DNA from: Parcubacteria group bacterium Gr01-1014_8
GTDB lineage: Bacteria; Patescibacteriota; Minisyncoccia; Phycocordibacterales; UBA2100
DNA length: 64,000 nucleotides
Direction: 5' to 3'
Assembly (NCBI GenBank): GCA_007376385.1
Contig: VMGC01000005.1
Coordinates: forward strand, 64,001-128,000
The stretch's first letter is position 1, and each line of letters opens with the position of its first letter. Both the position numbers and the translations under genes were made by a program. The notes under the pieces were generated by a model. It saw only the letters and a list, made by a program, of their open reading frames with translations. It ran no database searches and was not told the DNA's origin. Shown here in pieces: positions 13,524 to 61,433 of the stretch.

Positions 13524-14801
13524 TCATTCTGTTCGGAATATTCTATAAATGGCGCCAGCGCGGTCGTCGGAGACGAACATCGTGCCGCCGGGTTCGACGA
13601 GAATGTCGACGGGACGGCCTATAACCTCGCCGTCTTTCATGAAGCCGGTCATAAAATCAACCGGAGCAAGCGGATTTCCTCCGGAGTCGAAGGGAATTCG
13701 TACTATTTTGTATCCCGTCAGGACAGAGCGATTCCATGAACCGTGGTATGCGACTAAGAGATCGAACCAGTAATCCTCGGGCCATCCTTCTTCAGGAATG
13801 AACGCCAATCCTAGCGGAGCGGAATGTGCCTGTAGGTCAATGTACGACGGCGTTTCAAACGGCTCCATGCATGGATTACGTATATAGGTGTTTTTATCAA
13901 ATACGTTGTCGTGGATATTTTTTCCATAGCAGATAGGCCAGCCGTAATTTCCGCCCTCTTTGATGATGTTCACCTCGTCCGGCGGAACATCGTCGCCGAG
14001 GAGGTCGCGCCCCATGTCAGTGCCCCATAGCTCTCCGGTCACCGGGTGAATGGCCATAAAGACCGTGTTGCGGAGGCCGCGCGCGAATTCAGCCGGTTCA
14101 TCAAATGCGCTTCCTGGAAAATCGAGTGCAAGTATCTTTGCATTGCGCGCATCGGTTTCATTGCATGCATTGCATGAGGAACCAACTGCAATGAGCAAAC
14201 GTGTGCCGTCCGGGTGTGCTAAGAGAGTTCGCGTGACATGTCTTCCGCCCGTGGGAAAAGATGCAAGTGTTTTCGGCAGTGTTGCTGTAAACGTGTCGGG
14301 GTCGTAGGCGTACGATTGGAGCACATCTTCTTCCGCGACATACATTCTGCAGTCGTTTCCTGCCTGCGCCGAGGCTTCGGCAGGCAGGCCGAATTCGCCT
14401 GCCCCGTTAGAGGCCACAGGCTCTCTAATGGGGTCGCACCGGAACAAGATCCCGTGCGGAGCGTTCAAACCAGTCAGGATGTCTACGATGCGGTCGGCTT
14501 TTTTGTCGCCATCTTTGTCGGGCAGCGCCACGATGCGTCCTTCCGACATAAGAGACGCAACGAGGGTTCCTTTAACGTCGCGGGCCAAGACGCGAGCGCC
14601 GGGTGTATCGTCCGAATACACTGATACGGCAAACCCTTCGGGCACTTTGAATGGAAGTTCCCCATCATCCGCAGGAAGTGCAGGCGGAGATTTTGCGAGC
14701 GGGACTGCGCCTATCACGTTGCGGTACACATGTGGACCGAACCAAAGGAGGGCTATCGCTGCGAGCGAGAGCAACAGGATCGCAATAGTACGCGTTGGCA
14801 T
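13524..14801 (-). CDS. PQQ-dependent soluble sugar (aldose/sorbosone) dehydrogenase-like beta-propeller protein
   Basis: N-terminal TM anchor. Motifs typical of YliI/SGDH family (..HGILF.., ..GELWGTDMGRD.., GGNYGWP, GLAF..E). Confidence 0.75.
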   Translation of the reverse strand: MPTRTIAILLLSLAAIALLWFGPHVYRNVIGAVPLAKSPPALPADDGELPFKVPEGFAVSVYSDDTPGARVLARDVKGTLVASLMSEGRIVALPDKDGDKKADRIVDILTGLNAPHGILFRCDPIREPVASNGAGEFGLPAEASAQAGNDCRMYVAEEDVLQSYAYDPDTFTATLPKTLASFPTGGRHVTRTLLAHPDGTRLLIAVGSSCNACNETDARNAKILALDFPGSAFDEPAEFARGLRNTVFMAIHPVTGELWGTDMGRDLLGDDVPPDEVNIIKEGGNYGWPICYGKNIHDNVFDKNTYIRNPCMEPFETPSYIDLQAHSAPLGLAFIPEEGWPEDYWFDLLVAYHGSWNRSVLTGYKIVRIPFDSGGNPLAPVDFMTGFMKDGEVIGRPVDILVEPGGTMFVSDDRAGAIYRIFRTE

Positions 14802-14805
14802 GTCA

Positions 14806-17445
14806 TTAGTGGCCGTCGAACGAGCGGAAGAGCCACTTGGTTGTCTCAACGATGGTCATATTAAGGAAGACCCACACGACAACTATCCATAAGAGTGACA
14901 GAGGCGGCACGACTTCGATGTGGAAAATATGCCGAAGAGGTGCAAATGCCACCGTAGCGATAAGAAGACCAACACCAATAACGACGCTCCAATTCAGTTC
15001 GCGATTAGAGAATATGGGGTACGTGAACAAGGGACGCCGCAGGGAGCGGAAGCAATACGCGACCGCGAGTACATACGAAGCGAAGCAGAGAAACAAAATA
15101 GAACGCGCTTCTTCAACAGGAATGCCAGCGTACAGCAAGAGCCAGTACAGCGCAAAGAGAAGAGGGGCTGTCACTGCACCAATGCCTATGGTGAGAATGC
15201 GCACTTTTGTGTCGAAAATCGCACCAGCCCCGCGCGTTCTTGAAGGCTGCTCGTTATACAAGGATTCGAACGCATACGAAAGAGCGGGGAAACTGCCAGT
15301 TATGAAATTCACCCAAATTATCTGCAAGGCGGTAAGGGGGAGCGGCAAGCCAATGAGAAGAGCGCCGCCGATGAGGACAACCTCGTCGAAACAGCTTGTC
15401 ATCAAATAGACGAACGCCTTTCGAGTGTTCGCAAGAATGCGCCGGCCTTCTTCTATCGCTGCAACAATAGTTTTGAAGTTGTCATCGAGGAGCACGATGT
15501 CAGCGACGCTTTTTGCGACATCTGTGCTGCTTCCGAGCGCGATGCCGATATCAACTGCTTTTAGCGCAGGTGCGTCGTTTACGCCGTCGCCCGTCATTGC
15601 GACTACTTCACCTTGCTTTCGATAGAGCATGCCGATGCGCAGTTTATCTTCCGGCGTAACGCGCGCGAATATCTTTATGTTCGGCAGTATTGTTGTTAGC
15701 TCTGTGTCCGTCAGTTTTCGGATCTCCTCGCCGGAGATAGCATGGCCGTCGTGAACATTCCATCCGAGTTCGTGCGCTATCGCAACCGCGGTTCCTTTCA
15801 GATCTCCCGTAACCATGACCACGCGTGCTCCGAGGTGTTCTATGCGCTGGAGCGCGCTTTTTGCTTCAGGACGTATAGGATCCCTGAACATAAGAATGCC
15901 CCGAAAGTCGAGCTTTTGTGCGTCTTTTGCGGAGAGCTCTTTTGCATTTTGAGGTCCTTTTAGTTTGGCGATGCCGAGCAATCGTTTGCCTTCGGAGCTG
16001 ATAGCGTGCACTCTTTTTTCAAGTGACAGGAATTCATCTTTCGTTATATCTGAGTGCGCGAGCAGGATCTCCGGCGCGCCTATGACATAGTGCTCTTCTC
16101 CTTTGCTTTTCACGATGGAAAATTTGTTTGTCGAGTTGAACGCGAGTAGGGGGGGATGCTTTTCTTGCATGAGTTCAGCGACATCTATTCCTTGGTGAAC
16201 GGCGGCATGCGCGATGGTTACGTCGAGCGACCTGCCGGAGAATTTTGGATGTGTTTTTGATTCTGAATCGTCGACGGTGACGTCAATGCCGAGGATTGCG
16301 GCCTCGAGTATGGCGCGCTTTTCAGGCGAGAGATTTGTGTCTCTGTCAGAAAGATGGGGGCTTTCCTGCGGCGAGGAGTTGGATAGGAGTTCGTGCTTGG
16401 TCTCGATACCGACGAGCCGCATGTTTGCTTGCGTTAGAGTACCCGTCTTATCTGTCATGATGATAGTTGCAGAACCGAGTGTTTCTGCTGCGGCAAGATT
16501 GCGAATGACGCCTTTTCTCTCTGCGAGCCTTTGGACTCCTATCGCTAGAATGACGGTGAGCGCGATGGGAAGCGCTTCGGGAACGGCGCCTACAGCGACA
16601 GCGGATGCGATGAGGAGCATTTCAATGAGGGGAATTCCTCTCGCAAGTCCGATGAAGAACATCCCCACGACGAGTACCGAAATGCCGAGAAAAATGAACC
16701 ATGCGATATTCCACAGTGCTTTTTGGAGAGGCGTTGGCTCATGGCCCGTGTGAGTGACAAGGGACGCGATTCGTCCGATCTCGGTTGCTCCGCCGACAGC
16801 GGATACGACGGCGGTTCCATGTCCATCAACAACGAGGGTGCCGGCGAATGCCATGTTGACCCTCTCCGAAACGCTTGATGCCTCCGAAACGACACGCGAT
16901 TCTTTTTGAACAGGCAGGGATTCCCCGGTCAGGATGGCTTCATCGATGAAAAGATTATTCTCGGTGAGAATGCGAGCGTCGGCCGGTACGCGGGCGCCAT
17001 ACGATAGCCGGATGATGTCGCCTATGACGAGTTGTTCTGAATCAACTTCTTGTTCGACTCGCTGTCGAATGACGCGTGCACGTTCCTTTATGTATGTTGT
17101 TAATTTTTCTAGCGTATTCTCTGCCTGATATTCTTGATAGAAGCCAAGAGCTGCGTTCACAAAAATGGCGAGCAAGATGACAGAGGAGTCTATCCATTCT
17201 TTCAGAAGAACGGTGAGCCCCGCCGCAACCAAGAGCATGAAGATAAGAGGACTCTCGAATTGACGCCACAAAATAGCAAGCGCATTCAGGCGCCCCGATC
17301 TTGGAAATGCATTCGCACCGAAGCGCGAGAGACGGATCGCTACTTCAGCGTCGCTCAATCCTTCACTTTTTGCGTGGTGCAGCAGTAAGGCCTCATCCGT
17401 CGACAGTGCCCACACGTGCTGCTGCACAAGAGGATGATCCTTCAT
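14806..17445 (-). CDS. P-type cation-transporting ATPase (P2-type)
   Basis: Phosphorylation site DKTGTLT, TGDGVNDAPALK, a cation-transporter N-terminal domain and ~10 TM segments. Confidence 0.9.
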   Translation of the reverse strand: MKDHPLVQQHVWALSTDEALLLHHAKSEGLSDAEVAIRLSRFGANAFPRSGRLNALAILWRQFESPLIFMLLVAAGLTVLLKEWIDSSVILLAIFVNAALGFYQEYQAENTLEKLTTYIKERARVIRQRVEQEVDSEQLVIGDIIRLSYGARVPADARILTENNLFIDEAILTGESLPVQKESRVVSEASSVSERVNMAFAGTLVVDGHGTAVVSAVGGATEIGRIASLVTHTGHEPTPLQKALWNIAWFIFLGISVLVVGMFFIGLARGIPLIEMLLIASAVAVGAVPEALPIALTVILAIGVQRLAERKGVIRNLAAAETLGSATIIMTDKTGTLTQANMRLVGIETKHELLSNSSPQESPHLSDRDTNLSPEKRAILEAAILGIDVTVDDSESKTHPKFSGRSLDVTIAHAAVHQGIDVAELMQEKHPPLLAFNSTNKFSIVKSKGEEHYVIGAPEILLAHSDITKDEFLSLEKRVHAISSEGKRLLGIAKLKGPQNAKELSAKDAQKLDFRGILMFRDPIRPEAKSALQRIEHLGARVVMVTGDLKGTAVAIAHELGWNVHDGHAISGEEIRKLTDTELTTILPNIKIFARVTPEDKLRIGMLYRKQGEVVAMTGDGVNDAPALKAVDIGIALGSSTDVAKSVADIVLLDDNFKTIVAAIEEGRRILANTRKAFVYLMTSCFDEVVLIGGALLIGLPLPLTALQIIWVNFITGSFPALSYAFESLYNEQPSRTRGAGAIFDTKVRILTIGIGAVTAPLLFALYWLLLYAGIPVEEARSILFLCFASYVLAVAYCFRSLRRPLFTYPIFSNRELNWSVVIGVGLLIATVAFAPLRHIFHIEVVPPLSLLWIVVVWVFLNMTIVETTKWLFRSFDGH

Positions 17446-42861: not shown

Positions 42862-43321
42862 TGCAGCATTAATCAAACAGAAGACAAGGTACTTACGGGA
42901 CGGCCGGGCCCCGATTCCGAAAAGTGAAAAAATCTCTCGCACGATGAGTGCGATAAGAGCAAAGAACACGAAGCCCGAGTTACTTGTTCGCAAGGTTTTC
43001 CGAAAAGTAGGAATACGCGGATATCGATTGCATTGGAATAAAGTAGCCGGACGACCGGATATTGTGTTCCCTAAGAAAAAAGTCGCTGTGTTTGTTCACG
43101 GCTGTTACTGGCACGGATGTCCACATTGCAAACTTACACTCCCGAAAACGCATCGAGCATTTTGGCGTGCAAAGTTCAAGAGAAACAAGGAAAGAGACGC
43201 TCATAAGACAAAAGACCTGCGGAAATTAGGATGGCGTGTACTTACCGTGTGGGAGCACCAAATAAAGAAAGATGCGGATCAAATCGCTGCACGCGTCGTG
43301 AAGGCTCTTCGTGACGCTTGA
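42854..43321 (+). CDS. vsr: Very-short-patch-repair endonuclease
   Basis: ..SRTMSAIRAKNTKPE..GRPDIVFPKKKVAVFVHGCYWHGC..WEHQIKKD.., the Vsr catalytic core. Start codon uncertain (42854 or 42944). Confidence 0.85.
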   Translation: MIDAALIKQKTRYLRDGRAPIPKSEKISRTMSAIRAKNTKPELLVRKVFRKVGIRGYRLHWNKVAGRPDIVFPKKKVAVFVHGCYWHGCPHCKLTLPKTHRAFWRAKFKRNKERDAHKTKDLRKLGWRVLTVWEHQIKKDADQIAARVVKALRDA

Positions 43322-44648
43322 TGCTCTGCAAAAGTGCACGGCCTATTTCTTCAATGATTCCGACGACAAGTGCGTTACCCATGAAGAACGCTCGTTTTAC
43401 GTCGGAAATGTCGTCATATGCGGTATGGCGAGCAGGGAATTGGCATAATAACTCTAACTCTGTTGGGGTAAGTCGGCGGTATTTTCCGGACTTTGTTTTT
43501 ACAACATGCTTGAATCGCGAGGGTGCGGGCCCTCCCTCTCCTGTAATTATCGTGCGGGAAGGTTTATCCAAAGCATCCGGAAAAGTCATTGGACCCTCTG
43601 CGTAGTGATAAGTGAATCCATCTGTCCCATGGCGCTCTTCCTTTTTAGCACCCTTGAGATATTTCCACTCTTTTAGTGAGCCGTTGATAAAATATTCTTC
43701 GGCGACTTTGTGTTCCGGAAGTAGAATATCACCGAGAGTAATGAAAGGGCCACCGTATTTTGGAGTTACGCGAGCGGTTGTGATCCGACCGTCACTCATG
43801 ACCCCAGCATTCGCAAAATCTATATCGTCCGGGAACAATTGTTCAAAGTCTCTCGTTATTCTGACGGGATCATCAGCGACATCGTGTCTCGCGAATCTTG
43901 AAATTTCATCTTCGACTGCGAGTCGTTGCGCGAAAACTCCTTCTTTTGTCAGCCAATTGATCGCGTCAGTCGAACGTAGCGCATTTGCAATACCGGTTCC
44001 ATTCTTGAACGCGAGAATAAAGATCCGGCGCCTGCGCTGTGGTTTTCCGTAATCAGCTGCATTGATAACGCGCCATTCGACGACATATCCGAGGTTTGCG
44101 AGCGAAGCGAGCATGATCGCAAAATCACGACCGCGGGCAGATGCTGGGGACTTTAATAATCGGTCAACGTTCTCTAGGAACACATAGGGAGCAGAGTCCT
44201 TGTGTCCTTTTTCTTGAAGAATGCGATAGATCTGCCACCAGAGAACGCCTTTCTTTCCCTGGAGTCCCGCAGCTTGGCTCAACGTTCGTGCAACCGAATA
44301 ATCCTGACAAGGAAATCCTCCGACAAGAACATGATGGTCCGGGATGTCACCTGTTGCGACGGTCGCGATATCTTGATTACTGTGTCCTTTGCTGCCAAAA
44401 CGTGCCCGGTACACCTCGGATGCGTGCTGGCGTTTCGTTGATGGCTCCCACTGATTACTCCAGATGGTCTCGAATTTCAGACCTGCTCTCGCCGCTTCCT
44501 TTTTTGATGCTTGGTCGAGTCCGAGACGAAATCCTCCCACCCCTGCGAACAATTCAATGACCTTAAGTGGCACCGCTTGTCGATCGTCTTTTTTGAGCGT
44601 ATGTTTGGCTAGTTTCCCCATAGCTAAATCGTACCAAGGAATATCCAT
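43242..44648 (-). CDS. dcm: DNA (cytosine-5)-methyltransferase
   Basis: Motif I ELFAGVGGFRLG, motif IV GGFPCQDYS, motif VI FLENV, plus a target-recognition domain. Overlaps vsr at its 3' end (convergent). Confidence 0.9.
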   Translation of the reverse strand: MDIPWYDLAMGKLAKHTLKKDDRQAVPLKVIELFAGVGGFRLGLDQASKKEAARAGLKFETIWSNQWEPSTKRQHASEVYRARFGSKGHSNQDIATVATGDIPDHHVLVGGFPCQDYSVARTLSQAAGLQGKKGVLWWQIYRILQEKGHKDSAPYVFLENVDRLLKSPASARGRDFAIMLASLANLGYVVEWRVINAADYGKPQRRRRIFILAFKNGTGIANALRSTDAINWLTKEGVFAQRLAVEDEISRFARHDVADDPVRITRDFEQLFPDDIDFANAGVMSDGRITTARVTPKYGGPFITLGDILLPEHKVAEEYFINGSLKEWKYLKGAKKEERHGTDGFTYHYAEGPMTFPDALDKPSRTIITGEGGPAPSRFKHVVKTKSGKYRRLTPTELELLCQFPARHTAYDDISDVKRAFFMGNALVVGIIEEIGRALLQSIKRHEEPSRRVQRFDPHLSLFGAPTR

Positions 44649-44681
44649 TTGATCAAGATCGAGTTATCCACTGTCTGCCAT

Positions 44682-45452
44682 ATGCATAAAAAGTTCATCG
44701 AACTACTGAATATACCCGATCCAAAGATCCTGGAACCCAAAAAAGTGGGACCTAAACGCCTACAGATGGTCAACTTTGCACGAACGCTTTCTAGAGGAAC
44801 CTTAGAAAGCCCGCATGAACACAAGATTTGGAAAGTCAGGGCTTATTGGATTGGATTCCAAAAACCAGGAATTGAGACTGCTGCGGACGCGGAAACCAAT
44901 TACAAAGATGGTACTGTCGCTCCTAATCCTGACGACATGAAGCCCACTATATGGAAGTCGAATAAGATCATTAAAGCACCAGCGTCATTTGAAGAGATTT
45001 TTCACGTTTTTGAAAGACTTTTACGAAATGATGAAGAAAATGTTTTGGAGCTGCTTGCCGCCATCCTTTATAGAGATGCTTATTTGTTGGATTACGAGAT
45101 CAGTGATCAGCCGAACGCTGTCCCCGAATATAGGTTATCCCAAGATATACTTCAGGAACTTGAGAAACCGCTCTTCAGTGTTACTGGATTACCAGCTGAG
45201 GTTTATTTGAAATATTTGCAAATGATCGCATGGAATGAGGACGTCAAATATAACGCCTTAGGTTATAATATTGCGAAAGAGAAGACGGGCAGGCAGGGAA
45301 ATCTATTAACCTACACCCACTTGATTGCTGTGCTGTTAGGTAGGGCGCGATTAGCAAATTTTTGCTACGCATTTGCTCGAAGTGGAGGAGTAGCACCTAT
45401 AACGGGAATTGCTACCTGGGCAGCATTTCCTTGGCTTAGAAATGAGAAGTAA
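44682..45452 (+). CDS. Hypothetical protein divergent from dcm (candidate cognate restriction endonuclease or defence component)
   Basis: ~257 aa from the first ATG; the annotated ORF starts at a TTG at 44649. No recognisable motif. It lies in the low-GC island only ~33 nt from the dcm start. Confidence 0.45.
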   Translation: MHKKFIELLNIPDPKILEPKKVGPKRLQMVNFARTLSRGTLESPHEHKIWKVRAYWIGFQKPGIETAADAETNYKDGTVAPNPDDMKPTIWKSNKIIKAPASFEEIFHVFERLLRNDEENVLELLAAILYRDAYLLDYEISDQPNAVPEYRLSQDILQELEKPLFSVTGLPAEVYLKYLQMIAWNEDVKYNALGYNIAKEKTGRQGNLLTYTHLIAVLLGRARLANFCYAFARSGGVAPITGIATWAAFPWLRNEK

Positions 45453-51611: not shown

Positions 51612-52283
51612 TTAAAGACCGATCTCTACTTCTGTCGAACCTTCCATCTTCGTTTTACTTCCTGCTTCTGCACTCGAACCTCCTTCTGCATGCGCCGATG
51701 TCTCGCTTTTGACGGTGGCCGGACCGACGTGAATGTCAGCTGTTCCGTCGCCGTTCACGTCGCCCGCTGTGACATTGATGTCAGCGGTACCATCGCCGCT
51801 GACGTCCCCTGCGGCGACACCTGCGCGAGCCCGGATGTTCTGGATGATGTTCTTGAGGCTTGTGTGGGCTTCTGCTGAAGCACTGCCTTTCACGTTCGTT
51901 TCGACATTGCTGAATGCGTTGATAGCAGTGTTGATGCGCGTAAGGACCGATACCGCAGCTTCCGTCTTGCCGGACGTGCTAAGTTCGTTGGCTGCTTGAA
52001 GCGCGGCTTCTGCATGCGACGAAAATTCTGCTCCCAATTCTGCAGCAACGTCAGCATCCAATTCGCCGCGGGCGCTAAGTTCTGCGGCTTCTTGCAAGCG
52101 GCGTTCGGTAACGCGTGCTTGCCAGTTCGCTTCTGCTTCGCTCGAAACCGTAAGTGCAGCACGGACGTTTTCGTTCACCGACGTTTTCATGCCGTAGAGG
52201 ACGTCTCCCGGGACAGCATTTTCGGCGGCAAAAGAGGCTCCGCCTCCAAGTGCCAAGATCACTACTAGAATGATTGCAATCAT
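51612..52283 (-). CDS. Hypothetical secreted protein (DUF5667-like N-terminus)
   Basis: Signal peptide. ..PGDVLYGMK..EN.. N-terminal motif and an Ala/Glu-rich helical segment. Confidence 0.5.
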   Translation of the reverse strand: MIAIILVVILALGGGASFAAENAVPGDVLYGMKTSVNENVRAALTVSSEAEANWQARVTERRLQEAAELSARGELDADVAAELGAEFSSHAEAALQAANELSTSGKTEAAVSVLTRINTAINAFSNVETNVKGSASAEAHTSLKNIIQNIRARAGVAAGDVSGDGTADINVTAGDVNGDGTADIHVGPATVKSETSAHAEGGSSAEAGSKTKMEGSTEVEIGL

Positions 52284-53508: not shown

Positions 53509-53787
53509 TCAGATGCCGAGCAGTTTGCCGAACGTAACGATAGCAGTTCCGACGAAACGTATAGGGTCAACTTTTGCGCGAGACGTGCGAGAGCTCGTGT
53601 TCGCGTACGTACCCGGATAGAGGTACATCTCTACATATGAATCTCTTGCAGCCATTCTGTTCGTTATCTGTGTCGTATCGGGGCTGGCGACGGGACCGAA
53701 TGCCAGATAGTACCCGCCGGCGATAATGACAACGACGCTGACCACAATTGTCGCAAGAGGGGAGACAGGACTCATATTTTGTTGCAT
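53509..53787 (-). CDS. Small membrane protein
   Basis: 92 aa with one TM helix near the N-terminus. Confidence 0.35.
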   Translation of the reverse strand: MQQNMSPVSPLATIVVSVVVIIAGGYYLAFGPVASPDTTQITNRMAARDSYVEMYLYPGTYANTSSRTSRAKVDPIRFVGTAIVTFGKLLGI

Positions 53788-53925
53788 AAAATGTTCAGCA
53801 CTTACGTTAGATACTGTAATTATACGAGTTATTTGGATACTTTAGGTACCTCCTGTGAATAGCATCACAACACCAGATTTTCTCCATGTGTGCAAGTGTG
53901 AGGGCATGATATAACGCGAGCCCAT

Positions 53926-54450
53926 ATGAATAGGGCTTCTATACAGCTTTCCTGCCTCGCATCCATGATGGCAGCCGTGTTTATGATCGTACCCGTAACT
54001 GCGGATGCGCAATATTATGACGACTATGGCTCCCAAATAGCGTATGAGGAAGTGTACGACTTTGGTTATGGATACGATTACAGTGATTTCTACGATACCT
54101 ACGATTATTACGATTACGGATATGACGACTACTCGCAGTACCAGTGGGTGAGTTACGGGGGAAACTATGGAGGCGGATACAATTCTCCCTACCAGTCTGC
54201 GTATCCATATCAAGCAGCGTTTCCGGTCTCATACGGCCAGCAGCAATATGGCCAACCGTACGCGCAGTACACTTTTTCCGCATACCAATTCAATTCTCCG
54301 TATCAATACACGTACAATGCATCGCCTACCGGCGATTACATTCCATACGTGAACGAGCCGCTGTGCGACTACCCGGGCTATGGCCGCTATTCGTGCAGTT
54401 ATCATCCAAGCCAGCCGATATACGACTACTGGACAGGTACCTGGTACTAG
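53926..54450 (+). CDS. Secreted tyrosine-rich low-complexity protein
   Basis: Signal peptide, then ~150 aa dominated by Tyr/Asp/Gly/Gln repeats (YDYSDFYDTYDYYDYGYDDYSQYQW..) and a C-terminal CDYPGYGRYSCSYHP. Confidence 0.55.
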   Translation: MNRASIQLSCLASMMAAVFMIVPVTADAQYYDDYGSQIAYEEVYDFGYGYDYSDFYDTYDYYDYGYDDYSQYQWVSYGGNYGGGYNSPYQSAYPYQAAFPVSYGQQQYGQPYAQYTFSAYQFNSPYQYTYNASPTGDYIPYVNEPLCDYPGYGRYSCSYHPSQPIYDYWTGTWY

Positions 54451-54696
54451 AGAGGTGTTTGCTCGGCATGTGTTTGCAGCCGCTGGTGTCCGGCGCTGCA
54501 CATTCGGTCTGTTGCTCTTAGTACTTCCTACATTCAGCCTACTGGCTTCAGTATTTCCTCGTTCTTCACTTGGTCATCGCTCTGCGCTCGGCAGGCTGCA
54601 TACCTTAGTGGTGCCGACCGGCACCACTAAGGTATGCGTTCTTTGCGGGGATATCTTTCTTGTTTGGGGCATCGTACGCCTGCTACTGTTACTGGG

Positions 54697-55677
54697 ATGA
54701 TGTTAAGAATTAAGAGTGCAGCAGGCTTCGTTCTACTCTTGCTGCTTTTGCCGCCTCTCGTAGGCGCACAAGGGCTGCCTGAGTCGCCAGCGTCCCCCAA
54801 TAAAGACGTTGAGGCGCTCGTTCGCGCGGAATTTGCAGACATACCGCTCATGATATCCATCGCACAGTGCGAATCAGAAATGAGGCAGTATGGCCCGCCC
54901 GGCAAGGGCGCAAACGGGGCCCTGCACGGAGGCGCAGGCGGCGCGATGGTAGGAGTCTTTCAGATCCATGAAGGAGTTCACCGCGCGGCAGCCAAAGCAA
55001 AGGGCATGGATATTGATACGCTCGAAGGAAATATCGCCTACGCGCGCTACCTATTTCAAACAGAAGGTACGAATCCGTGGCTCTCATCAGCGTCGTGTTG
55101 GCAGAGTACAGCGATGACGATTTCCTCCGTTGTTGATCCTGGTTCGATTGTTGTACCCGGCGATGTTGCGGAGCATAAGATATACACGTTTAATTCGCGC
55201 ACGCTCACCGCCGCATTGAAAATCGGCGACACGAAGCCAGAGGTCATCACGCTGCAAAAGATGCTGAACGGATCAGGTTTTGTGCTTGCTGAGTCCGGCC
55301 CAGGCTCGCCGGGCAATGAGACATCTACCTTCGGCCCCTTAACACGCGCGGCAGTGCGAACCCTGCAGTGTCATTCAAAGATAATTTGCTCCGGCGACGA
55401 AAAAACGACTGGCTTTGGATTCGTCGGTCCGCGCACGCGTGCAGCCCTCATGCAATTTGCAAAGGATAACGTGTACGTTCAGCCAGAGCCGATAATTGTG
55501 ACTGTGCCCCTGGACGGGCAGGCCGGCAGCTCTTCAACGTCTACAGCGTCGACTACACCACCAGGTTCTTCCGGCTCACCGACTTCCATGACGCCAGAAA
55601 AAGCTGCTCAAATAGATCTCTTGCAAGCACAGATACATGAGTTGCAACATCGAATTGCCGAACTAATGGATACGTGA
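54697..55677 (+). CDS. Secreted transglycosylase-like domain protein with peptidoglycan-binding domain
   Basis: Signal peptide. ..IAQCESEMRQYG....GVFQI.. transglycosylase-like motif. PG_binding_1-like segment (ITLQKMLNGSGF....FGPLTRAAVRTLQ). Confidence 0.6.
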   Translation: MMLRIKSAAGFVLLLLLLPPLVGAQGLPESPASPNKDVEALVRAEFADIPLMISIAQCESEMRQYGPPGKGANGALHGGAGGAMVGVFQIHEGVHRAAAKAKGMDIDTLEGNIAYARYLFQTEGTNPWLSSASCWQSTAMTISSVVDPGSIVVPGDVAEHKIYTFNSRTLTAALKIGDTKPEVITLQKMLNGSGFVLAESGPGSPGNETSTFGPLTRAAVRTLQCHSKIICSGDEKTTGFGFVGPRTRAALMQFAKDNVYVQPEPIIVTVPLDGQAGSSSTSTASTTPPGSSGSPTSMTPEKAAQIDLLQAQIHELQHRIAELMDT

Positions 55678-59801: not shown

Positions 59802-61136
59802 TTACGGTTGGACGAATGACTGGGTCGAACTCGTTGCCGTGTTGTTCGCTGCGTCCGTCGTCTCTATAGCGTAGTAGTACGTTGTACTTGCCGTAAGCCC
59901 AGAGAGTCCGAGCAGGTGGTTTGTTACGAGCGTGCTATTAAACGCGTTCAAGGTCGGACTCGCCAGCGTGACAGGCGTTGTTGTGCCGTACCATACTTTA
60001 CTCGAGGCGTTTTCGTTCGTCGCCCATATCACGTTTGCTGCCGTTGCAGAGGTAGACGATGCGTTTAGACCCGAGATAATTGGTGCGGTTGTGTCAGGCG
60101 TTCCTGTCGTGAACGTCGAATCTCCCGAAGTTGCACTGTTGCCCGCAGCATCTTTCGAGATAACGCGGAAGTGGTACAGCGTTCCGTTGGTGAGACCCGT
60201 AATCGCGACGCTGTGACTTGTCACAAGCGTTGCATTAAGCGTTGTCGTTGCCCCGTAGGAAGTTGTTGTTCCGTATTCGACTTGGGATGTTGCGCCTTCG
60301 TTGGTGTTCCACTGGATCGTTGCTCCTGCAGTTGTGATGCTTGTCGCAGCAATGTTGCTGAACGTCGGAGCAGTTGTGTCGGTTGGTGTCCCGCCCCCTG
60401 CACATACGCCGACAGAGTCGCCGTGAGCGAGGTGGGCTCCGAGAGCCGGAATTGCGATGACGAGTGTTTGCGGAGACGCACCGGCTGGCTTGTGGCACAG
60501 AGTCACAAATCCTTGTCCCGGCGTCGTCGAGCTGATCTCAAGTCCAAGTCTCTTGATGATGCCGAACGGAAGTTCTCGGCCGATGAAGAGCGAAAGGATT
60601 TTAGCCTGCGTCTTTGGGCCAAAGATACCGATGGAATCAATGCCGTGCTTTTTCTGGAACAGGCGCAGCGCTGCTTCGGTTCTCGGGCCAAAGAATCCAG
60701 TTATGAATTCCGGCGAGAAGAGCGAAGGATCCTGTGCAAGAAGTTCCTGCAAGTCGCGCACGTCATCGCCTGACATGCCGCGTGAGAGCGAGCGAAGGAA
60801 TTTCAGGTCCTTTCTCACATCCTTTATATCGGATTTTGTTTCTTTTATCTCGACTTTGAGCGCTGCTCGCGCTGCGTCGTTCGAATCGTCGTTGCTCAAG
60901 GCCTTCTTGTCCGCCTTCAGCTTTGCGAGCTCTTCTTGCAGAATCTTAATCTGCTGCATGAGCGCATCGGTGGTTGTGCCAAGTGCTCCGAAGTTGAACA
61001 CCCACGACTTGTTGCCGTTGTTACTCTTTCCCGACTTTCCATGTTCGCCGTCATTATCGTTGTCTGCATATGCGAGCGGTGCCATAGCGAGGCCCATGAA
61101 CATTGCAGAGATTATTCCTACTCGTAATAGATACAT
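59802..61136 (-). CDS. Secreted protein with coiled-coil, peptidoglycan-binding domain and two fibronectin type III-like repeats
   Basis: Signal peptide. PG_binding_1-like ..DVRDLQELLAQD......GFFGPRTEAALRLFQ... Two Thr/Ser-rich FN3-like repeats (..TAPT.S.I.A.....A.I.W.TNE.A.S.V.YGTTT.Y..). Confidence 0.6.
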   Translation of the reverse strand: MYLLRVGIISAMFMGLAMAPLAYADNDNDGEHGKSGKSNNGNKSWVFNFGALGTTTDALMQQIKILQEELAKLKADKKALSNDDSNDAARAALKVEIKETKSDIKDVRKDLKFLRSLSRGMSGDDVRDLQELLAQDPSLFSPEFITGFFGPRTEAALRLFQKKHGIDSIGIFGPKTQAKILSLFIGRELPFGIIKRLGLEISSTTPGQGFVTLCHKPAGASPQTLVIAIPALGAHLAHGDSVGVCAGGGTPTDTTAPTFSNIAATSITTAGATIQWNTNEGATSQVEYGTTTSYGATTTLNATLVTSHSVAITGLTNGTLYHFRVISKDAAGNSATSGDSTFTTGTPDTTAPIISGLNASSTSATAANVIWATNENASSKVWYGTTTPVTLASPTLNAFNSTLVTNHLLGLSGLTASTTYYYAIETTDAANNTATSSTQSFVQP

Positions 61137-61433
61137 ATTTGCTATTGCTTTATTACTAAGTTTATAAGCCGCACGAATGTGGATTATACACCCGTACTTG
61201 TAGGTAGGACGGTGGGGGAGTGCGCTTCTTGCGGTTGCCCAGATTAGCACACGTTTACAGCGTACTTGTCAATTTTCGGCAGTCCCAACCAATCATCAAG
61301 CACTGACGATAGTCTTGAATCCACCGTACGCCATCTTTTTCGTTCTTCCCGGCCAGCAAATAGGGCAGGGACCGCTTCCGCGAAACTTGTGACCGCGGTT
61401 GCAAGTTCTCCATGGAGATTTCTTTTTCATTGT

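What the first reader, a model, noticed from the sequence alone, without database searches (positions are those of the whole stretch)
53926..54450. Secreted protein composed largely of tyrosine-rich repeats
After a signal peptide, roughly 150 residues are dominated by Y, D, G, Q, S and P in short degenerate repeats (YDYSDFYDTYDYYDYGYDDYSQYQWVSYGGNYGGGYNSPYQSAYPYQ...). Tyr is about one residue in four. The protein ends with a Cys-containing tail.

Such composition suggests a cross-linkable or adhesive extracellular matrix or cell-wall protein. It is unlike standard annotated families.
Basis: seen in the sequence. Interest (0 to 1): 0.5.

Follow-up and report, generated by a model that had tools for sequence, protein, structure and literature searches.

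The report
Secreted tyrosine-rich protein with conserved tail
This is a real gene from a groundwater Parcubacteria (candidate phyla radiation) bacterium encoding a small exported protein with a disordered stretch that is one-quarter tyrosine and a small, strongly conserved folded tail of unknown fold; it founds a rare, unnamed family that probably acts as a sticky cell-surface or matrix protein, though no function has been shown.

Summary
ORF 53926-54450 (+) encodes 174 aa with 39 Tyr: 22% overall, 27% after the signal peptide, about 9.5 SD above other window ORFs. It is coding: in the last 41 codons, synonymous sites are saturated against relatives (pS 0.92) while pN is 0.05-0.08.

The "Cys-containing tail" is a about 44-aa module, P-T-G-D...C...Y-G-R..C...P.Q..Y-D.W-T-G-T-W-Y-stop. 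About 35 small proteins share it, and the named sources are Parcubacteria/Kaiserbacteria. All have a Sec signal peptide, a Tyr/Gln/Gly/Ser/Pro low-complexity region (pooled Tyr 25%, Lys 0.1%) and this module.

AlphaFold2 predicts a disordered middle and an all-beta tail (pLDDT 84-91). The tail has no fold match in PDB and no Pfam or NCBIfam hit. Its last residues nearly reproduce the designed hairpin CLN025 (YYDPETGTWY).

The Tyr region is a composition bias, not true repeats. Aromatics are more evenly spaced than chance in 36 of 36 members, as in FUS-type "sticker-spacer" domains.

No oxidase, maturase or anchor motif is consistently linked. Best reading (about 0.4): an exported, self-associating surface or matrix protein whose tail binds an unknown partner. 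It is a new family, and its function is inferred, not shown.

The parts
53907..53915 (+). Extended -10-like promoter box TGaTATAAC, ending 10 nt before the ATG. It implies a leaderless or very short-leader mRNA.
   Evidence: Read directly from the sequence. The same placement of a TATAAC/TATAAT/TATAGT box 7-12 nt before the start occurs in at least 10 of 16 family loci, often with TTGAC[ACG] 17 nt upstream. A -10-like box just before the start is common in this window and SD motifs are rare. This is a consensus match only; it has not been tested.
53926..54450 (+). Coding sequence of the 174-aa secreted Tyr-rich protein, including the stop codon.
   Evidence: ORF listing and translation. It is 100% identical to P0001, a hypothetical protein of Parcubacteria group bacterium Gr01-1014_8. 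Purifying selection acts in this frame.
53926..54009 (+). Predicted Sec signal peptide, residues 1-28 (MNRASIQLSCLASMMAAVFMIVPVTADA | QYY).
   Evidence: The n-h-c organisation and A-D-A cleavage motif can be read from the sequence. Relatives have equivalent peptides ending ASA|W, VSA|W, AFA|F, TFA|W and ANA|Q. AlphaFold2 models residues 3-29 as a helix. No dedicated signal-peptide predictor was available.
54010..54315 (+). Tyr-rich low-complexity region, residues 29-130. It has an acidic Asp/Tyr first part (Y 36%, D 24%) and a Gln/Ser/Gly/Ala/Pro/Tyr second part (Y 24%, Q 17%).
   Evidence: Composition. pLDDT is below 50 with no secondary structure for residues 31-121. There are no tandem DNA repeats. 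Aromatics are more evenly spaced than in shuffles (z -2.7), and adjacent aromatic pairs number 3 against 12.2 expected. Sequence and length are not conserved among relatives, but composition is.
54316..54447 (+). Conserved C-terminal module, residues 131-174: ..SPTGDYIPYVNEPLCDYPGYGRYSCSYHPSQPIYDYWTGTWY-COOH. It is predicted to be a small all-beta domain.
   Evidence: Invariant or near-invariant columns across 23 sequences are P, T, G, D, C, Y, G, R, C, P, Q, Y, D, W, T, G, W, Y. An exhaustive HMM search found 18 representative clusters, always with the module at the extreme C-terminus. AlphaFold2 gives pLDDT 82 for the module alone and 84-91 in the full-length model, with strands 133-139, 144-149 and 153-156 plus a terminal hairpin. 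pS is 0.92 against pN 0.05-0.08. There is no fold match.
54364..54396 (+). The two invariant Cys codons (Cys147 at 54364-54366, Cys157 at 54394-54396); a disulfide between them is presumed.
   Evidence: Both Cys are invariant in all 23 aligned members. The disulfide is inferred from invariance plus export; it is not shown.
54418..54447 (+). Chignolin-like terminal beta-hairpin, residues 165-174 (IYDYWTGTWY).
   Evidence: The only PDB sequence hit of the module profile is the chignolin-type YDPETGTWY segments of 3wkn, AFFinger p17. CLN025 is YYDPETGTWY. AlphaFold2 places beta-bridges at 166-167 and 172-173, which is the chignolin register.
54597..54638 (+). Terminator-like hairpin (19-bp stem, 4-nt loop, then TTCTTTG), lying between this gene and the next.
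   Evidence: The 60-nt stretch containing it folds at -42 kcal/mol. Comparable strong hairpins follow the stop codon in L011, L013, L014, L016 and L019. This suggests a monocistronic unit.
53509..53787 (-). Divergent neighbour: a 92-aa protein with an N-terminal membrane helix and a C-terminus ...VTFGKLLGI. This is context; it is not shown to be functionally linked.
   Evidence: The same small gene sits next to the closest homologue in L002/L003, and the same FGKLLGI ending occurs on a large Cys-repeat protein in L004 and L006. No other relatives were found in the large protein database.
54697..55677 (+). Downstream neighbour: a secreted protein with a PG_binding_1 domain. The likely start is Met22, after the hairpin. 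This is context only.
   Evidence: Pfam PG_binding_1, E 2.3e-7. A homologue lies within 5 kb of the Tyr-rich gene in 6 of 17 loci. The hairpin at 54597-54638 separates it from the Tyr-rich gene.

Best explanation
The gene encodes a small protein that is exported through the Sec pathway and released from its signal peptide. It then acts outside the membrane of a single-membrane Parcubacteria cell as a self-associating, sticky surface or matrix component.

It has two working parts:
1. A about 100-residue disordered region. Evenly spaced Tyr residues, in [S/G/Q]-Y-[G/Q/S/P] contexts with almost no Lys, Arg, Glu or aliphatic residues, would act as multivalent aromatic 'stickers'. This is the grammar of FUS/Sup35-type prion-like low-complexity domains, which form condensates, gels or labile cross-beta networks.
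2. A about 44-residue aromatic beta module at the C-terminus. It is probably stapled by one disulfide and ends in a chignolin-type hairpin. It would supply the specific contact: docking to a conserved partner such as a wall polymer, a surface layer, another copy of the protein, or a host-cell surface.

Shown or strongly supported: the gene is real and under selection, the three-part architecture, the predicted disorder and fold, and the family-wide composition and aromatic patterning.

Inferred: export, the disulfide, self-association, any binding partner, and any role in adhesion.
For: - Real gene under constraint: in the last 41 codons pS is 0.92 against pN 0.05-0.08 versus L002 and L001.
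- Conserved architecture in about 35 distinct members: signal peptide, Tyr-rich low-complexity region, C-terminal module.
- Low-complexity composition is kept despite no sequence or length conservation. Pooled values are Y 25%, Q 12.6%, G 10.9%, S 10.6%, P 8.4%, K 0.1%, E 0.7%, R 1.0%. Every member has 19-42% Tyr, which argues for selection on composition rather than a passive spacer.
- Tyr context is S/G/Q before and G/Q/S/P after. The top tripeptides are YGY, GYG, SYG, YGG, YSY and QYQ.
- Aromatics are more evenly spread than in shuffles in 36/36 members (mean z -1.67). Adjacent aromatic pairs are depleted in 36/36 (mean z -1.94). Even spacing of aromatic stickers is the described hallmark of prion-like low-complexity domains that form dynamic condensates rather than aggregates (PMC8638251). 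Tyr is the stronger sticker (bioRxiv 10.1101/2021.01.01.425046).
- AlphaFold2 predicts residues 31-121 as disordered and 131-174 as a confident beta domain.
- Candidate prion-like domains in bacteria are reported to be enriched in cell-wall and cell-periphery proteins (PMC4606120).
- Weak contextual support: cell-wall genes lie within 5 kb in many loci. PG_binding_1 proteins occur in 6 loci and undecaprenyl-diphosphatase BacA in 4.
- The gene appears to be an independent unit with its own promoter-like box and terminator-like hairpin.
Against: - There is no experimental or expression evidence of any kind.
- No anchoring motif is present (no LPXTG, lipobox or known wall-binding domain), so retention at the cell surface is unproven.
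- The C-module has no detectable similarity to any known binding fold.
- Gene neighbourhoods are not conserved beyond close relatives. The cell-wall neighbours could reflect ordinary synteny in small genomes, and no background rate was computed.
- Tyr at 25% is about twice that of the eukaryotic domains used as the analogy. The first 42 residues of this region in the window protein are strongly acidic (net charge of the mature protein about -15), which would oppose self-association unless cations screen the charge.
- The family is very rare: 18 clusters among 1.84 billion representatives, all singletons. It is therefore not a general envelope component of these bacteria.
Confidence: 0.4

Rival explanations
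1. Pro-protein for a secreted mini-protein. The functional entity is the conserved about 44-residue disulfide-stapled C-terminal module, acting as a signal, ligand, inhibitor or toxin. The Tyr-rich stretch is a pro-region or spacer that is removed or irrelevant.
For: Conservation is concentrated almost entirely in the last about 44 residues, up to the very last residue, while the middle is hypervariable in length and sequence. The module has two invariant Cys and a compact predicted fold. All members are small stand-alone proteins of 80-240 aa, with no fusion to other domains.
Against: Every member keeps a Tyr-rich (19-42%), Lys-free middle with non-random aromatic spacing. A disposable spacer would not be expected to hold such a costly and specific composition. 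No conserved protease site is evident at the junction, which reads ..SYGYPTGD / ..NASPTGD. No immunity, transporter or receptor gene is consistently adjacent. The module is anionic, unlike most bacteriocins (read from the sequence).
Confidence: 0.2
2. Substrate for oxidative cross-linking. The Tyr-rich region is covalently cross-linked (dityrosine or DOPA chemistry) into a hardened wall or coat layer. The comparison is with Bacillus spore-coat CotC/CotU/CotG, resilin, or coccidian oocyst-wall proteins.
For: Extreme Tyr content in an exported protein. One relative (L001) lies next to a small cupredoxin / multicopper-oxidase-like protein. Tyr-rich proteins cross-linked through dityrosine are an established class of extracellular structural proteins (general knowledge; papers listed).
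Against: No peroxidase, laccase or tyrosinase lies in the 20 kb around the gene or near most relatives. The cupredoxin has no homologue in the 64-kb window. Many of these organisms are thought to live in anoxic groundwater (general knowledge, not checked here), where O2- or H2O2-dependent cross-linking is less likely. Only 64 kb of the genome could be inspected, so absence from the genome is not established.
Confidence: 0.12
3. Cation- or mineral-binding protein. The acidic Asp/Tyr stretch binds Ca2+, Fe or mineral surfaces in groundwater, either attaching cells to particles or controlling mineral encrustation.
For: The mature window protein has 13 Asp, 3 Glu, 1 Arg and 0 Lys, a net charge of about -15. 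L018 and L020 reach -19 to -21 with Asp/Cys/Tyr-rich segments. All named sources are groundwater organisms.
Against: Acidity is not a family trait. Many members are near neutral (net -2 to -4, Asp 0-2% of the middle region) yet keep the Tyr-rich composition and the C-module.
Confidence: 0.05
4. Precursor of a ribosomally made, post-translationally modified peptide, with the Trp/Tyr-rich C-terminus as the modified core.
For: A short, conserved, aromatic-rich C-terminus ending in Tyr recalls some radical-SAM-modified peptides. This is a resemblance from general knowledge only.
Against: The protein has a classical Sec signal peptide rather than a leader peptide. No radical-SAM, cyclase, protease or transporter genes are adjacent in any of about 18 loci. 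The module is predicted to fold on its own.
Confidence: 0.02
5. Not a gene: a chance open frame, or the shadow of a gene on the opposite strand.
For: Antisense ORFs of 90-123 aa overlap it. No Shine-Dalgarno motif precedes the start.
Against: The + frame is conserved in at least 35 proteins from different organisms. Synonymous sites are saturated with few amino-acid changes. The antisense frames are runs of Val/Ile produced by reading Tyr codons backwards. Shine-Dalgarno motifs are rare throughout this window.
Confidence: 0.01

Closest known systems
Prion-like / FUS-type low-complexity domains (FUS, hnRNPA1, Sup35 N-domain): a functional class, not a homologous family
   Same: A polar Gly/Ser/Gln/Pro/Tyr composition with very few charged or aliphatic residues. 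Tyr sits in [G/S/Q]Y[G/S/Q] contexts. The region is predicted to be disordered. Aromatic residues are spaced more evenly than chance across the whole family, the feature linked to condensate formation in PMC8638251 and bioRxiv 10.1101/2021.01.01.425046.
   Different: This protein is exported, bacterial, and has no RNA-binding domain. Tyr density (about 25%) is roughly double, Asn is modest, and Arg is essentially absent, so Tyr-Arg contacts cannot contribute. The region is attached to a small disulfide-containing beta module. Phase behaviour is untested.
Bacterial proteins with candidate prion-like domains at the cell periphery (survey in PMC4606120)
   Same: A Q/N/G/S/Y-rich disordered region in a protein that works outside the cytoplasm, attached to a folded domain.
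   Different: Those proteins carry recognisable wall-related domains (LysM, CHAP, NlpC/P60, SLH and others). This family has no recognised domain and a far higher Tyr content.
Tyr-rich cross-linked structural proteins: Bacillus spore-coat CotC/CotU/CotG, insect resilin, coccidian oocyst-wall Tyr-rich proteins
   Same: A small extracellular protein with extreme Tyr content. The Asp/Tyr segment YDYSDFYDTYDYYDYGYDDY resembles the Asp/Tyr runs of CotC (my own recollection of the CotC sequence; not tested here).
   Different: There is no sequence homology. Lys, a major residue of CotC/CotG, is absent here. No partner oxidase was found. Parcubacteria are not known to sporulate (general knowledge).
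Chignolin / CLN025, the designed 10-residue beta-hairpin mini-protein (YYDPETGTWY)
   Same: The family's last ten residues, [IVL]-Y-D-[PY]-W-T-G-[TS]-W-Y, match CLN025 at 8 of 10 positions in members with Pro and at 7 of 10 in the window protein. AlphaFold2 predicts the same hairpin register.
   Different: Chignolin is a synthetic design derived from the protein G B1 hairpin (PMC13602922). Here the motif is natural, is part of a larger about 44-residue module, and has Trp where chignolin has Glu. The likeness is almost certainly convergent and says nothing about function.
Curli-type functional amyloid subunits (CsgA)
   Same: A secreted, Gln/Gly/Ser/Tyr-containing protein that could form extracellular fibres.
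   Different: There are no imperfect repeat units, no Curlin_rpt match and no nucleator or secretion partner genes nearby.

Membership tests
FUS/Sup35-type prion-like low-complexity domain (class) | G/S/Q/N/Y-rich composition, poor in charged and aliphatic residues | tested here: met
   Pooled middle regions of 25 members: Y 24.9, Q 12.6, G 10.9, S 10.6, P 8.4, N 5.0, K 0.1, E 0.7, R 1.0, L 1.8, I 1.1 %. Asp is high in some members, including the window protein (10%).
FUS/Sup35-type prion-like low-complexity domain (class) | Intrinsic disorder | tested here: met
   AlphaFold2 full-length model: residues 31-121 have pLDDT below 50 and no secondary structure. This is a prediction only.
FUS/Sup35-type prion-like low-complexity domain (class) | Aromatic stickers evenly spaced along the chain | tested here: met
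   Local aromatic density varies less than in shuffles in 36/36 members (mean z -1.67; 13 below -2). Adjacent aromatic pairs are depleted in 36/36.
FUS/Sup35-type prion-like low-complexity domain (class) | Demonstrated phase separation, hydrogel or cross-beta assembly | not testable with these tools
   This needs purified protein.
Bacillus spore-coat Tyr-rich proteins (CotC/CotU/CotG) | Sequence homology to the family | tested here: not met
   No Pfam or NCBIfam hit for the window protein or for 20 relatives.
Bacillus spore-coat Tyr-rich proteins (CotC/CotU/CotG) | Tyr together with abundant Lys | tested here: not met
   Lys is 0 in the mature window protein and 0.1% family-wide.
Dityrosine-cross-linked structural proteins (class) | A partner oxidase (peroxidase, laccase/multicopper oxidase, tyrosinase) encoded with or near the gene | tested here: inconclusive
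   None was found within about 10 kb in the window. A cupredoxin neighbour occurs only in L001 and has no homologue in the window. The rest of the genome was not available.
Dityrosine-cross-linked structural proteins (class) | Presence of dityrosine bonds | not testable with these tools
   This needs biochemistry.
Chignolin/CLN025-type beta-hairpin (structural motif) | Sequence Y-D-P-x-T-G-T-W with flanking aromatic residues | tested here: met
   Family consensus is YD[PY]WTGTWY. The profile hits the YDPETGTWY segments of PDB 3wkn at E 0.004. The CLN025 sequence is confirmed in PMC13602922.
Chignolin/CLN025-type beta-hairpin (structural motif) | Hairpin with Tyr/Trp cross-strand pairing | tested here: met
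   AlphaFold2 places beta-bridges at 37-38/43-44 of the module, equivalent to 166-167/172-173 of the full protein. This is a prediction only, and coordinates could not be inspected.
Curli-type functional amyloid (CsgA) | Tandem imperfect repeat units and a Curlin_rpt match | tested here: not met
   No tandem repeats and no Pfam match.
RiPP precursor peptides | Adjacent maturase, protease or transporter genes, and a leader peptide instead of a Sec signal | tested here: not met
   The neighbours in about 18 loci are housekeeping, two-component and wall genes. A classical signal peptide is present.
Covalently anchored surface proteins (sortase substrates, lipoproteins) | C-terminal LPXTG with a hydrophobic and basic tail, or an N-terminal lipobox Cys | tested here: not met
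   The protein ends ...YDYWTGTWY-stop. There is no conserved Cys at the signal-peptide cleavage site in relatives.
Known wall- or glycan-binding and small beta modules (PG_binding_1, LysM, SH3b, CW_binding_1, CBMs, hevein, WW) | Profile match or fold match of the C-terminal module | tested here: not met

The most novel reading that the evidence does not exclude
A lineage of groundwater Parcubacteria secretes a protein that forms an extracellular condensate or gel, a bacterial 'glue'. It would use the same evenly spaced Tyr-sticker grammar as eukaryotic FUS-type domains. A previously unseen mini-domain, whose tip is a natural counterpart of the designed chignolin hairpin, would hold the glue on a specific target. 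Such a material could mediate attachment of these tiny, probably episymbiotic cells to hosts or particles. It would be a rare example of a phase-separating low-complexity protein acting outside a bacterial cell.
Probability: 0.15. Interest if true: 0.75.

Novelty: new variant of a known kind. Interest (0 to 1): 0.5.

Why it matters
Candidate-phyla-radiation bacteria are uncultivated, very small and thought to live attached to other cells. How they attach, and what their surfaces are made of, is largely unknown, and most of their lineage-specific proteins have no annotation.

This family gives a concrete, easily synthesised candidate (about 150 residues, no cofactors) for a surface or matrix material built on Tyr-sticker chemistry. 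It also offers a new about 44-residue fold for structural study.

If it self-assembles, it would extend the sticker-and-spacer concept to secreted bacterial proteins, and it could interest protein-materials research. The near-identity of its tip to chignolin is also a neat natural test case for a much-simulated designed peptide.

If it does none of this, it remains one more rare, lineage-restricted hypothetical protein.

Tried and rejected
- Pfam and NCBIfam scans of the window protein, of 23 C-modules and of 20 full-length relatives gave no family.
- PDB sequence search with the mature protein gave only a chance hit at E 1.7. The module profile hit only the chignolin grafts of 3wkn.
- Tandem Repeats Finder found no repeats, so the idea that the region is built of degenerate repeats is rejected.
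- Operon or neighbour inference: clustering of neighbours in 17 loci showed no gene conserved across the family. The PEP synthase/PPDK, cold-shock and DUF1003 neighbours are synteny among close relatives. The context of P0011 is different again. RiPP and oxidase-partner ideas were therefore set aside.
- The L001 cupredoxin, the N/Y-rich protein and the L004 Cys-repeat protein were searched against the window and none was present. Only a glucose/sorbosone-dehydrogenase-like gene matched, 40 kb away.
- The viral contig scan found no relatives, so a phage origin is unsupported.
- A profile search of the word-indexed protein database returned only one protein. The exhaustive representative search was the informative one.
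- Cluster look-up gave no names or taxa for distant members.
- A search with the 92-aa FGKLLGI neighbour returned only itself.
- The downstream PG_binding_1 protein had no PDB relative. I suspected from the CES...GVFQIH motif that its N-terminal part is a lytic-transglycosylase-like domain, but this was not confirmed by any tool and is not claimed.
- Literature searches for Tyr-rich proteins in candidate-phyla-radiation bacteria, and for Kaiserbacteria surface proteins, found nothing relevant.
Full report
**1. The observation**

- Tyr accounts for 39 of 174 residues (22.4%), and 39 of 146 (26.7%) after the predicted signal peptide. G, Q, D, S and P follow.
- Among 198 stop-to-stop ORFs of at least 100 aa in all six frames of the window, the next highest Tyr fraction is 6.9%. 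The mean is 2.6% and the SD 2.0%, so the bias is far beyond chance.
- The region is not made of repeats. Tandem Repeats Finder reports nothing at the lowest threshold.
- The pattern is instead regular spacing of Tyr. Adjacent YY pairs occur 2 times against 10 expected from shuffles, and spacings of 2-4 residues are enriched.

**2. It is a real gene, and the source is known**

The protein is 100% identical to a hypothetical protein of 'Parcubacteria group bacterium Gr01-1014_8', which is annotated from the internal Met14 (P0001).

Six homologues came from the first search. An exhaustive profile search with the conserved C-terminus against 1.84 billion representative proteins found 18 clusters at E below 0.001. 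Scans of genome and metagenome contigs added 16 loci.

The named sources are two Candidatus Kaiserbacteria genomes, one genome labelled Saccharibacteria with Kaiserbacteria-like gene order, and one unclassified genome. Kaiserbacteria belong to the Parcubacteria group of Patescibacteria.

Over the last 41 codons, the window gene differs from L002 and L001 at almost every synonymous site (pS 0.92) but at few non-synonymous sites (pN 0.05-0.08). This is strong purifying selection in the + frame. The overlapping antisense ORFs are Val/Ile runs produced by reading Tyr codons backwards.

**3. Anatomy**

All full-length members share three parts.

*(a) A classical signal peptide with an AxA-type site followed by an aromatic residue.* In the window protein this is MNRASIQLSCLASMMAAVFMIVPVTADA|QYY. 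Relatives end ASA|W, VSA|W, AFA|F, TFA|W or ANA|Q.

*(b) A low-complexity region of about 40-145 residues.*
- Its sequence and length are not conserved, but its composition is. Pooled values are Y 24.9%, Q 12.6%, G 10.9%, S 10.6%, P 8.4%, K 0.1%, E 0.7% and R 1.0%.
- Mature proteins have 0-1 Lys and a net charge of -2 to -21. The window protein is about -15.

*(c) A about 44-residue C-terminal module that always ends the protein.*
- The motif is P-T-G-D-x(5-7)-C-x-[YFW]-x-x-Y-G-R-x-x-C-x3-P-x-Q-x-x-Y-D-x-W-T-G-x-W-Y-stop, with both Cys invariant.

AlphaFold2 on the full-length alignment gives three regions:

| Residues | Prediction |
|---|---|
| 3-29 | helix (the signal peptide) |
| 31-121 | no structure, pLDDT below 50 |
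| 131-174 | confident all-beta domain, pLDDT 84-91; strands 133-139, 144-149, 153-156 and a terminal hairpin |

The module modelled alone gives the same topology at pLDDT 82.

**4. The C-terminal module is new, but its tip is familiar**

Its only PDB sequence hit is to the YDPETGTWY segments of the artificial protein 3wkn. That sequence is the designed beta-hairpin mini-protein chignolin/CLN025, YYDPETGTWY (PMC13602922).

The family's last ten residues, [IVL]YD[PY]WTG[TS]WY, match CLN025 at 8 of 10 positions in members with Pro and at 7 of 10 in the window protein. AlphaFold2 predicts the chignolin register. I take this as convergence on a very stable hairpin. It supports the view that the tail is a folded unit, but it does not reveal function.

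**5. The Tyr-rich region follows a 'sticker and spacer' grammar**

Tyr is preceded mostly by S, G or Q and followed by G, Q, S or P. The commonest tripeptides are YGY, GYG, SYG, YGG, YSY and QYQ.

In 36 of 36 distinct members, aromatic residues are spread more evenly than in shuffled sequences (mean z -1.67; 13 members below -2). Adjacent aromatic pairs are depleted in all 36 (mean z -1.94).

Even spacing of aromatic stickers in a polar, low-charge context is the described signature of prion-like low-complexity domains that form dynamic condensates rather than aggregates (PMC8638251). Tyr is the stronger sticker (bioRxiv 10.1101/2021.01.01.425046).

This composition and patterning are maintained across deep divergence (module identity falls to about 41-50%), while the sequence itself is free to vary. 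That argues the region is selected for its material properties and is not a passive linker.

**6. Transcription unit and neighbours**

*Signals around the gene.*
- A TGaTATAAC box ends 10 nt before ATG 53926.
- At least 10 of 16 related loci have a -10-like box 7-12 nt before their start, several with a TTGAC[ACG] box 17 nt upstream.
- In this window, Shine-Dalgarno motifs are rare (5 of 43 long ORFs) and such boxes are common (15 of 43). Leaderless-type starts therefore seem to be the rule in this organism, and 53926 is the likely start.
- A 19-bp hairpin followed by a T-rich run lies at 54597-54638, before the next gene. Similar strong hairpins follow the stop in several relatives.
- The gene thus looks monocistronic.

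*Neighbours in the window.*
- Upstream and divergent: a 92-aa membrane protein.
- Downstream: a secreted PG_binding_1 protein, followed by PEP synthase/PPDK.

*Recurring neighbours within 5 kb, from clustering 17 loci.*

| Neighbour | Loci |
|---|---|
| PG_binding_1 homologue | 6 |
| Histidine kinase / response regulator | 6 |
| PPDK | 5 |
| DUF1003 | 5 |
| Cold-shock protein | 4 |
| BacA | 4 |

Nothing is conserved family-wide, and another locus has Obg and a beta-lactamase-fold gene instead. No oxidase, maturase, transporter or sortase is a regular partner. A cupredoxin neighbour occurs only in L001 and a dehydrogenase-like neighbour only in L008. The window itself has no oxidase near the gene.

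**7. Interpretation**

The best-supported reading (confidence about 0.4) is an exported protein that acts outside the membrane as a self-associating, sticky surface or matrix component. The Tyr-rich disordered region would provide multivalent weak contacts. The conserved module, probably disulfide-stapled, would provide a specific contact with an unknown partner.

- Shown or strongly supported: the gene, its selection, the architecture, the predicted disorder and fold, and the family-wide composition and patterning.
- Inferred: export, the disulfide, self-association, the partner and any adhesive role.

A published survey reports that bacterial proteins with prion-like composition are concentrated at the cell wall and periphery (PMC4606120), which fits this reading.

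Points against:
- There is no anchoring motif and no recognisable binding fold.
- Tyr density is far above the eukaryotic analogues.
- The window protein is strongly acidic.
- The family is very rare, with all clusters singletons.

Rivals, in order of confidence:
- A pro-protein whose conserved 44-residue mini-protein is the active species (0.2).
- A cation- or mineral-binding acidic protein (0.05).
- A modified-peptide precursor (0.02).
- A non-gene (0.01).

**8. Comparison with known systems, and novelty**

The region works like a FUS/Sup35-type low-complexity domain in composition, disorder and aromatic patterning. However, it is secreted, bacterial, richer in Tyr and lacks Arg.

It resembles Tyr-rich cross-linked structural proteins only in Tyr content. 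It lacks their Lys and any partner oxidase, and there is no homology.

It is not a curli-type amyloid subunit, a sortase substrate, a lipoprotein or a member of any known wall-binding domain family; the membership table gives the tests.

I rate it a new variant of a known kind: an unnamed, lineage-restricted family that combines a known type of low-complexity region with a new small fold.

Interest is moderate (0.5). It is a clean, testable candidate for a surface material in poorly understood bacteria, and it carries a curious natural chignolin-like hairpin. There is no functional evidence yet.

Noticed in passing
window 53509-53787 (-); L002 7170-7412 (-); L004 1571-3619 (-); L006 5353-7254 (-): Proteins next to the Tyr-rich gene share an identical C-terminal ending...[TL]FGKLLGI-stop. 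It occurs on a 92-aa and an 80-aa membrane protein (window, L002) and on 633-682-aa secreted proteins (L004, L006). It may be a lineage-specific C-terminal anchor or sorting tail. A database search with the 92-aa protein found only itself.
   Followed up: partly
L004 1571-3619 (-); L006 5353-7254 (-): A large secreted protein with about nine repeats of a Cys-rich unit (GPGGC[RKV]GEAC..YCE...H.EEC..FA.ENG.MS.E). In L004 it is followed by a Gln/Tyr-rich stretch (YREQYGEQYQKQFENQYREQYQQEYQQQYNQQYQEQYQ). In both loci there is a Pro-rich tail and the FGKLLGI ending. It has no Pfam annotation in the precomputed table.
   Followed up: no
L007 236-574 (+); L018 3915-4244 (+); L020 3836-4240 (+): A second, unrelated family of small secreted Tyr/Asn-rich proteins lies 0.4-1.3 kb from the Tyr-rich gene in three loci. 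Its layout is: signal peptide, QYQLY[LW]C...YSPC module with two Cys, Tyr-rich stretch, NYNYNYN run, ending GWW or FWY. Tyr is 23-28% and there is no Pfam match. This suggests a wider class of secreted aromatic-rich proteins in these bacteria.
   Followed up: partly
window, whole; examples at 17445 (-), 10684 (-), 21749 (-), 19472 (+), 24823 (+), 46562 (+): Shine-Dalgarno motifs are rare (5 of 43 ORFs of at least 220 aa). By contrast, 15 of 43 have a -10-like box (TAGACT, TATACT, GATACT, TAGAAT) ending 6-10 nt before the start codon. This suggests widespread leaderless mRNAs in this organism.
   Followed up: partly
window 54597-54638 (+) and 54634-54697: A perfect 19-bp inverted repeat (the 60-nt stretch containing it folds at about -42 kcal/mol) overlaps the first ATG of the downstream ORF. 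The real start of that PG_binding_1 protein is therefore probably Met22 (54697), which begins a normal signal peptide, MMLRIKSAAGFVLLLLLLPPLVGA.
   Followed up: partly
window 54697-55677 (+) and 59802-61250 (-): Two secreted PG_binding_1 proteins lie within 7 kb. The first has an unannotated N-terminal part with a CES...GVFQIH motif and a C-terminal coiled-coil-like tail. The second combines PG_binding_1 with fn3 / purple-acid-phosphatase-N-like domains. Homologues of the first recur near the Tyr-rich gene in 6 of 17 loci.
   Followed up: partly
window 43242-44648 (-): A C-5 cytosine DNA methylase gene (Pfam DNA_methylase, E 3e-56), followed by an unannotated 267-aa ORF at 44649-45452 (+). This is possibly a restriction-modification pair.
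   Followed up: no
window 13524-14849 (-) and L008 6288-7544 (-): A glucose/sorbosone-dehydrogenase-like protein is the immediate divergent neighbour of the Tyr-rich gene in L008. It has a 53%-identical homologue in the window, but 40 kb away from the Tyr-rich gene.
   Followed up: partly
window 51612-52283 (-): A secreted DUF5667 protein with a weak FG-GAP-like repeat match lies 1.6 kb upstream of the Tyr-rich gene. It is another uncharacterised envelope-type protein in the neighbourhood.
   Followed up: no
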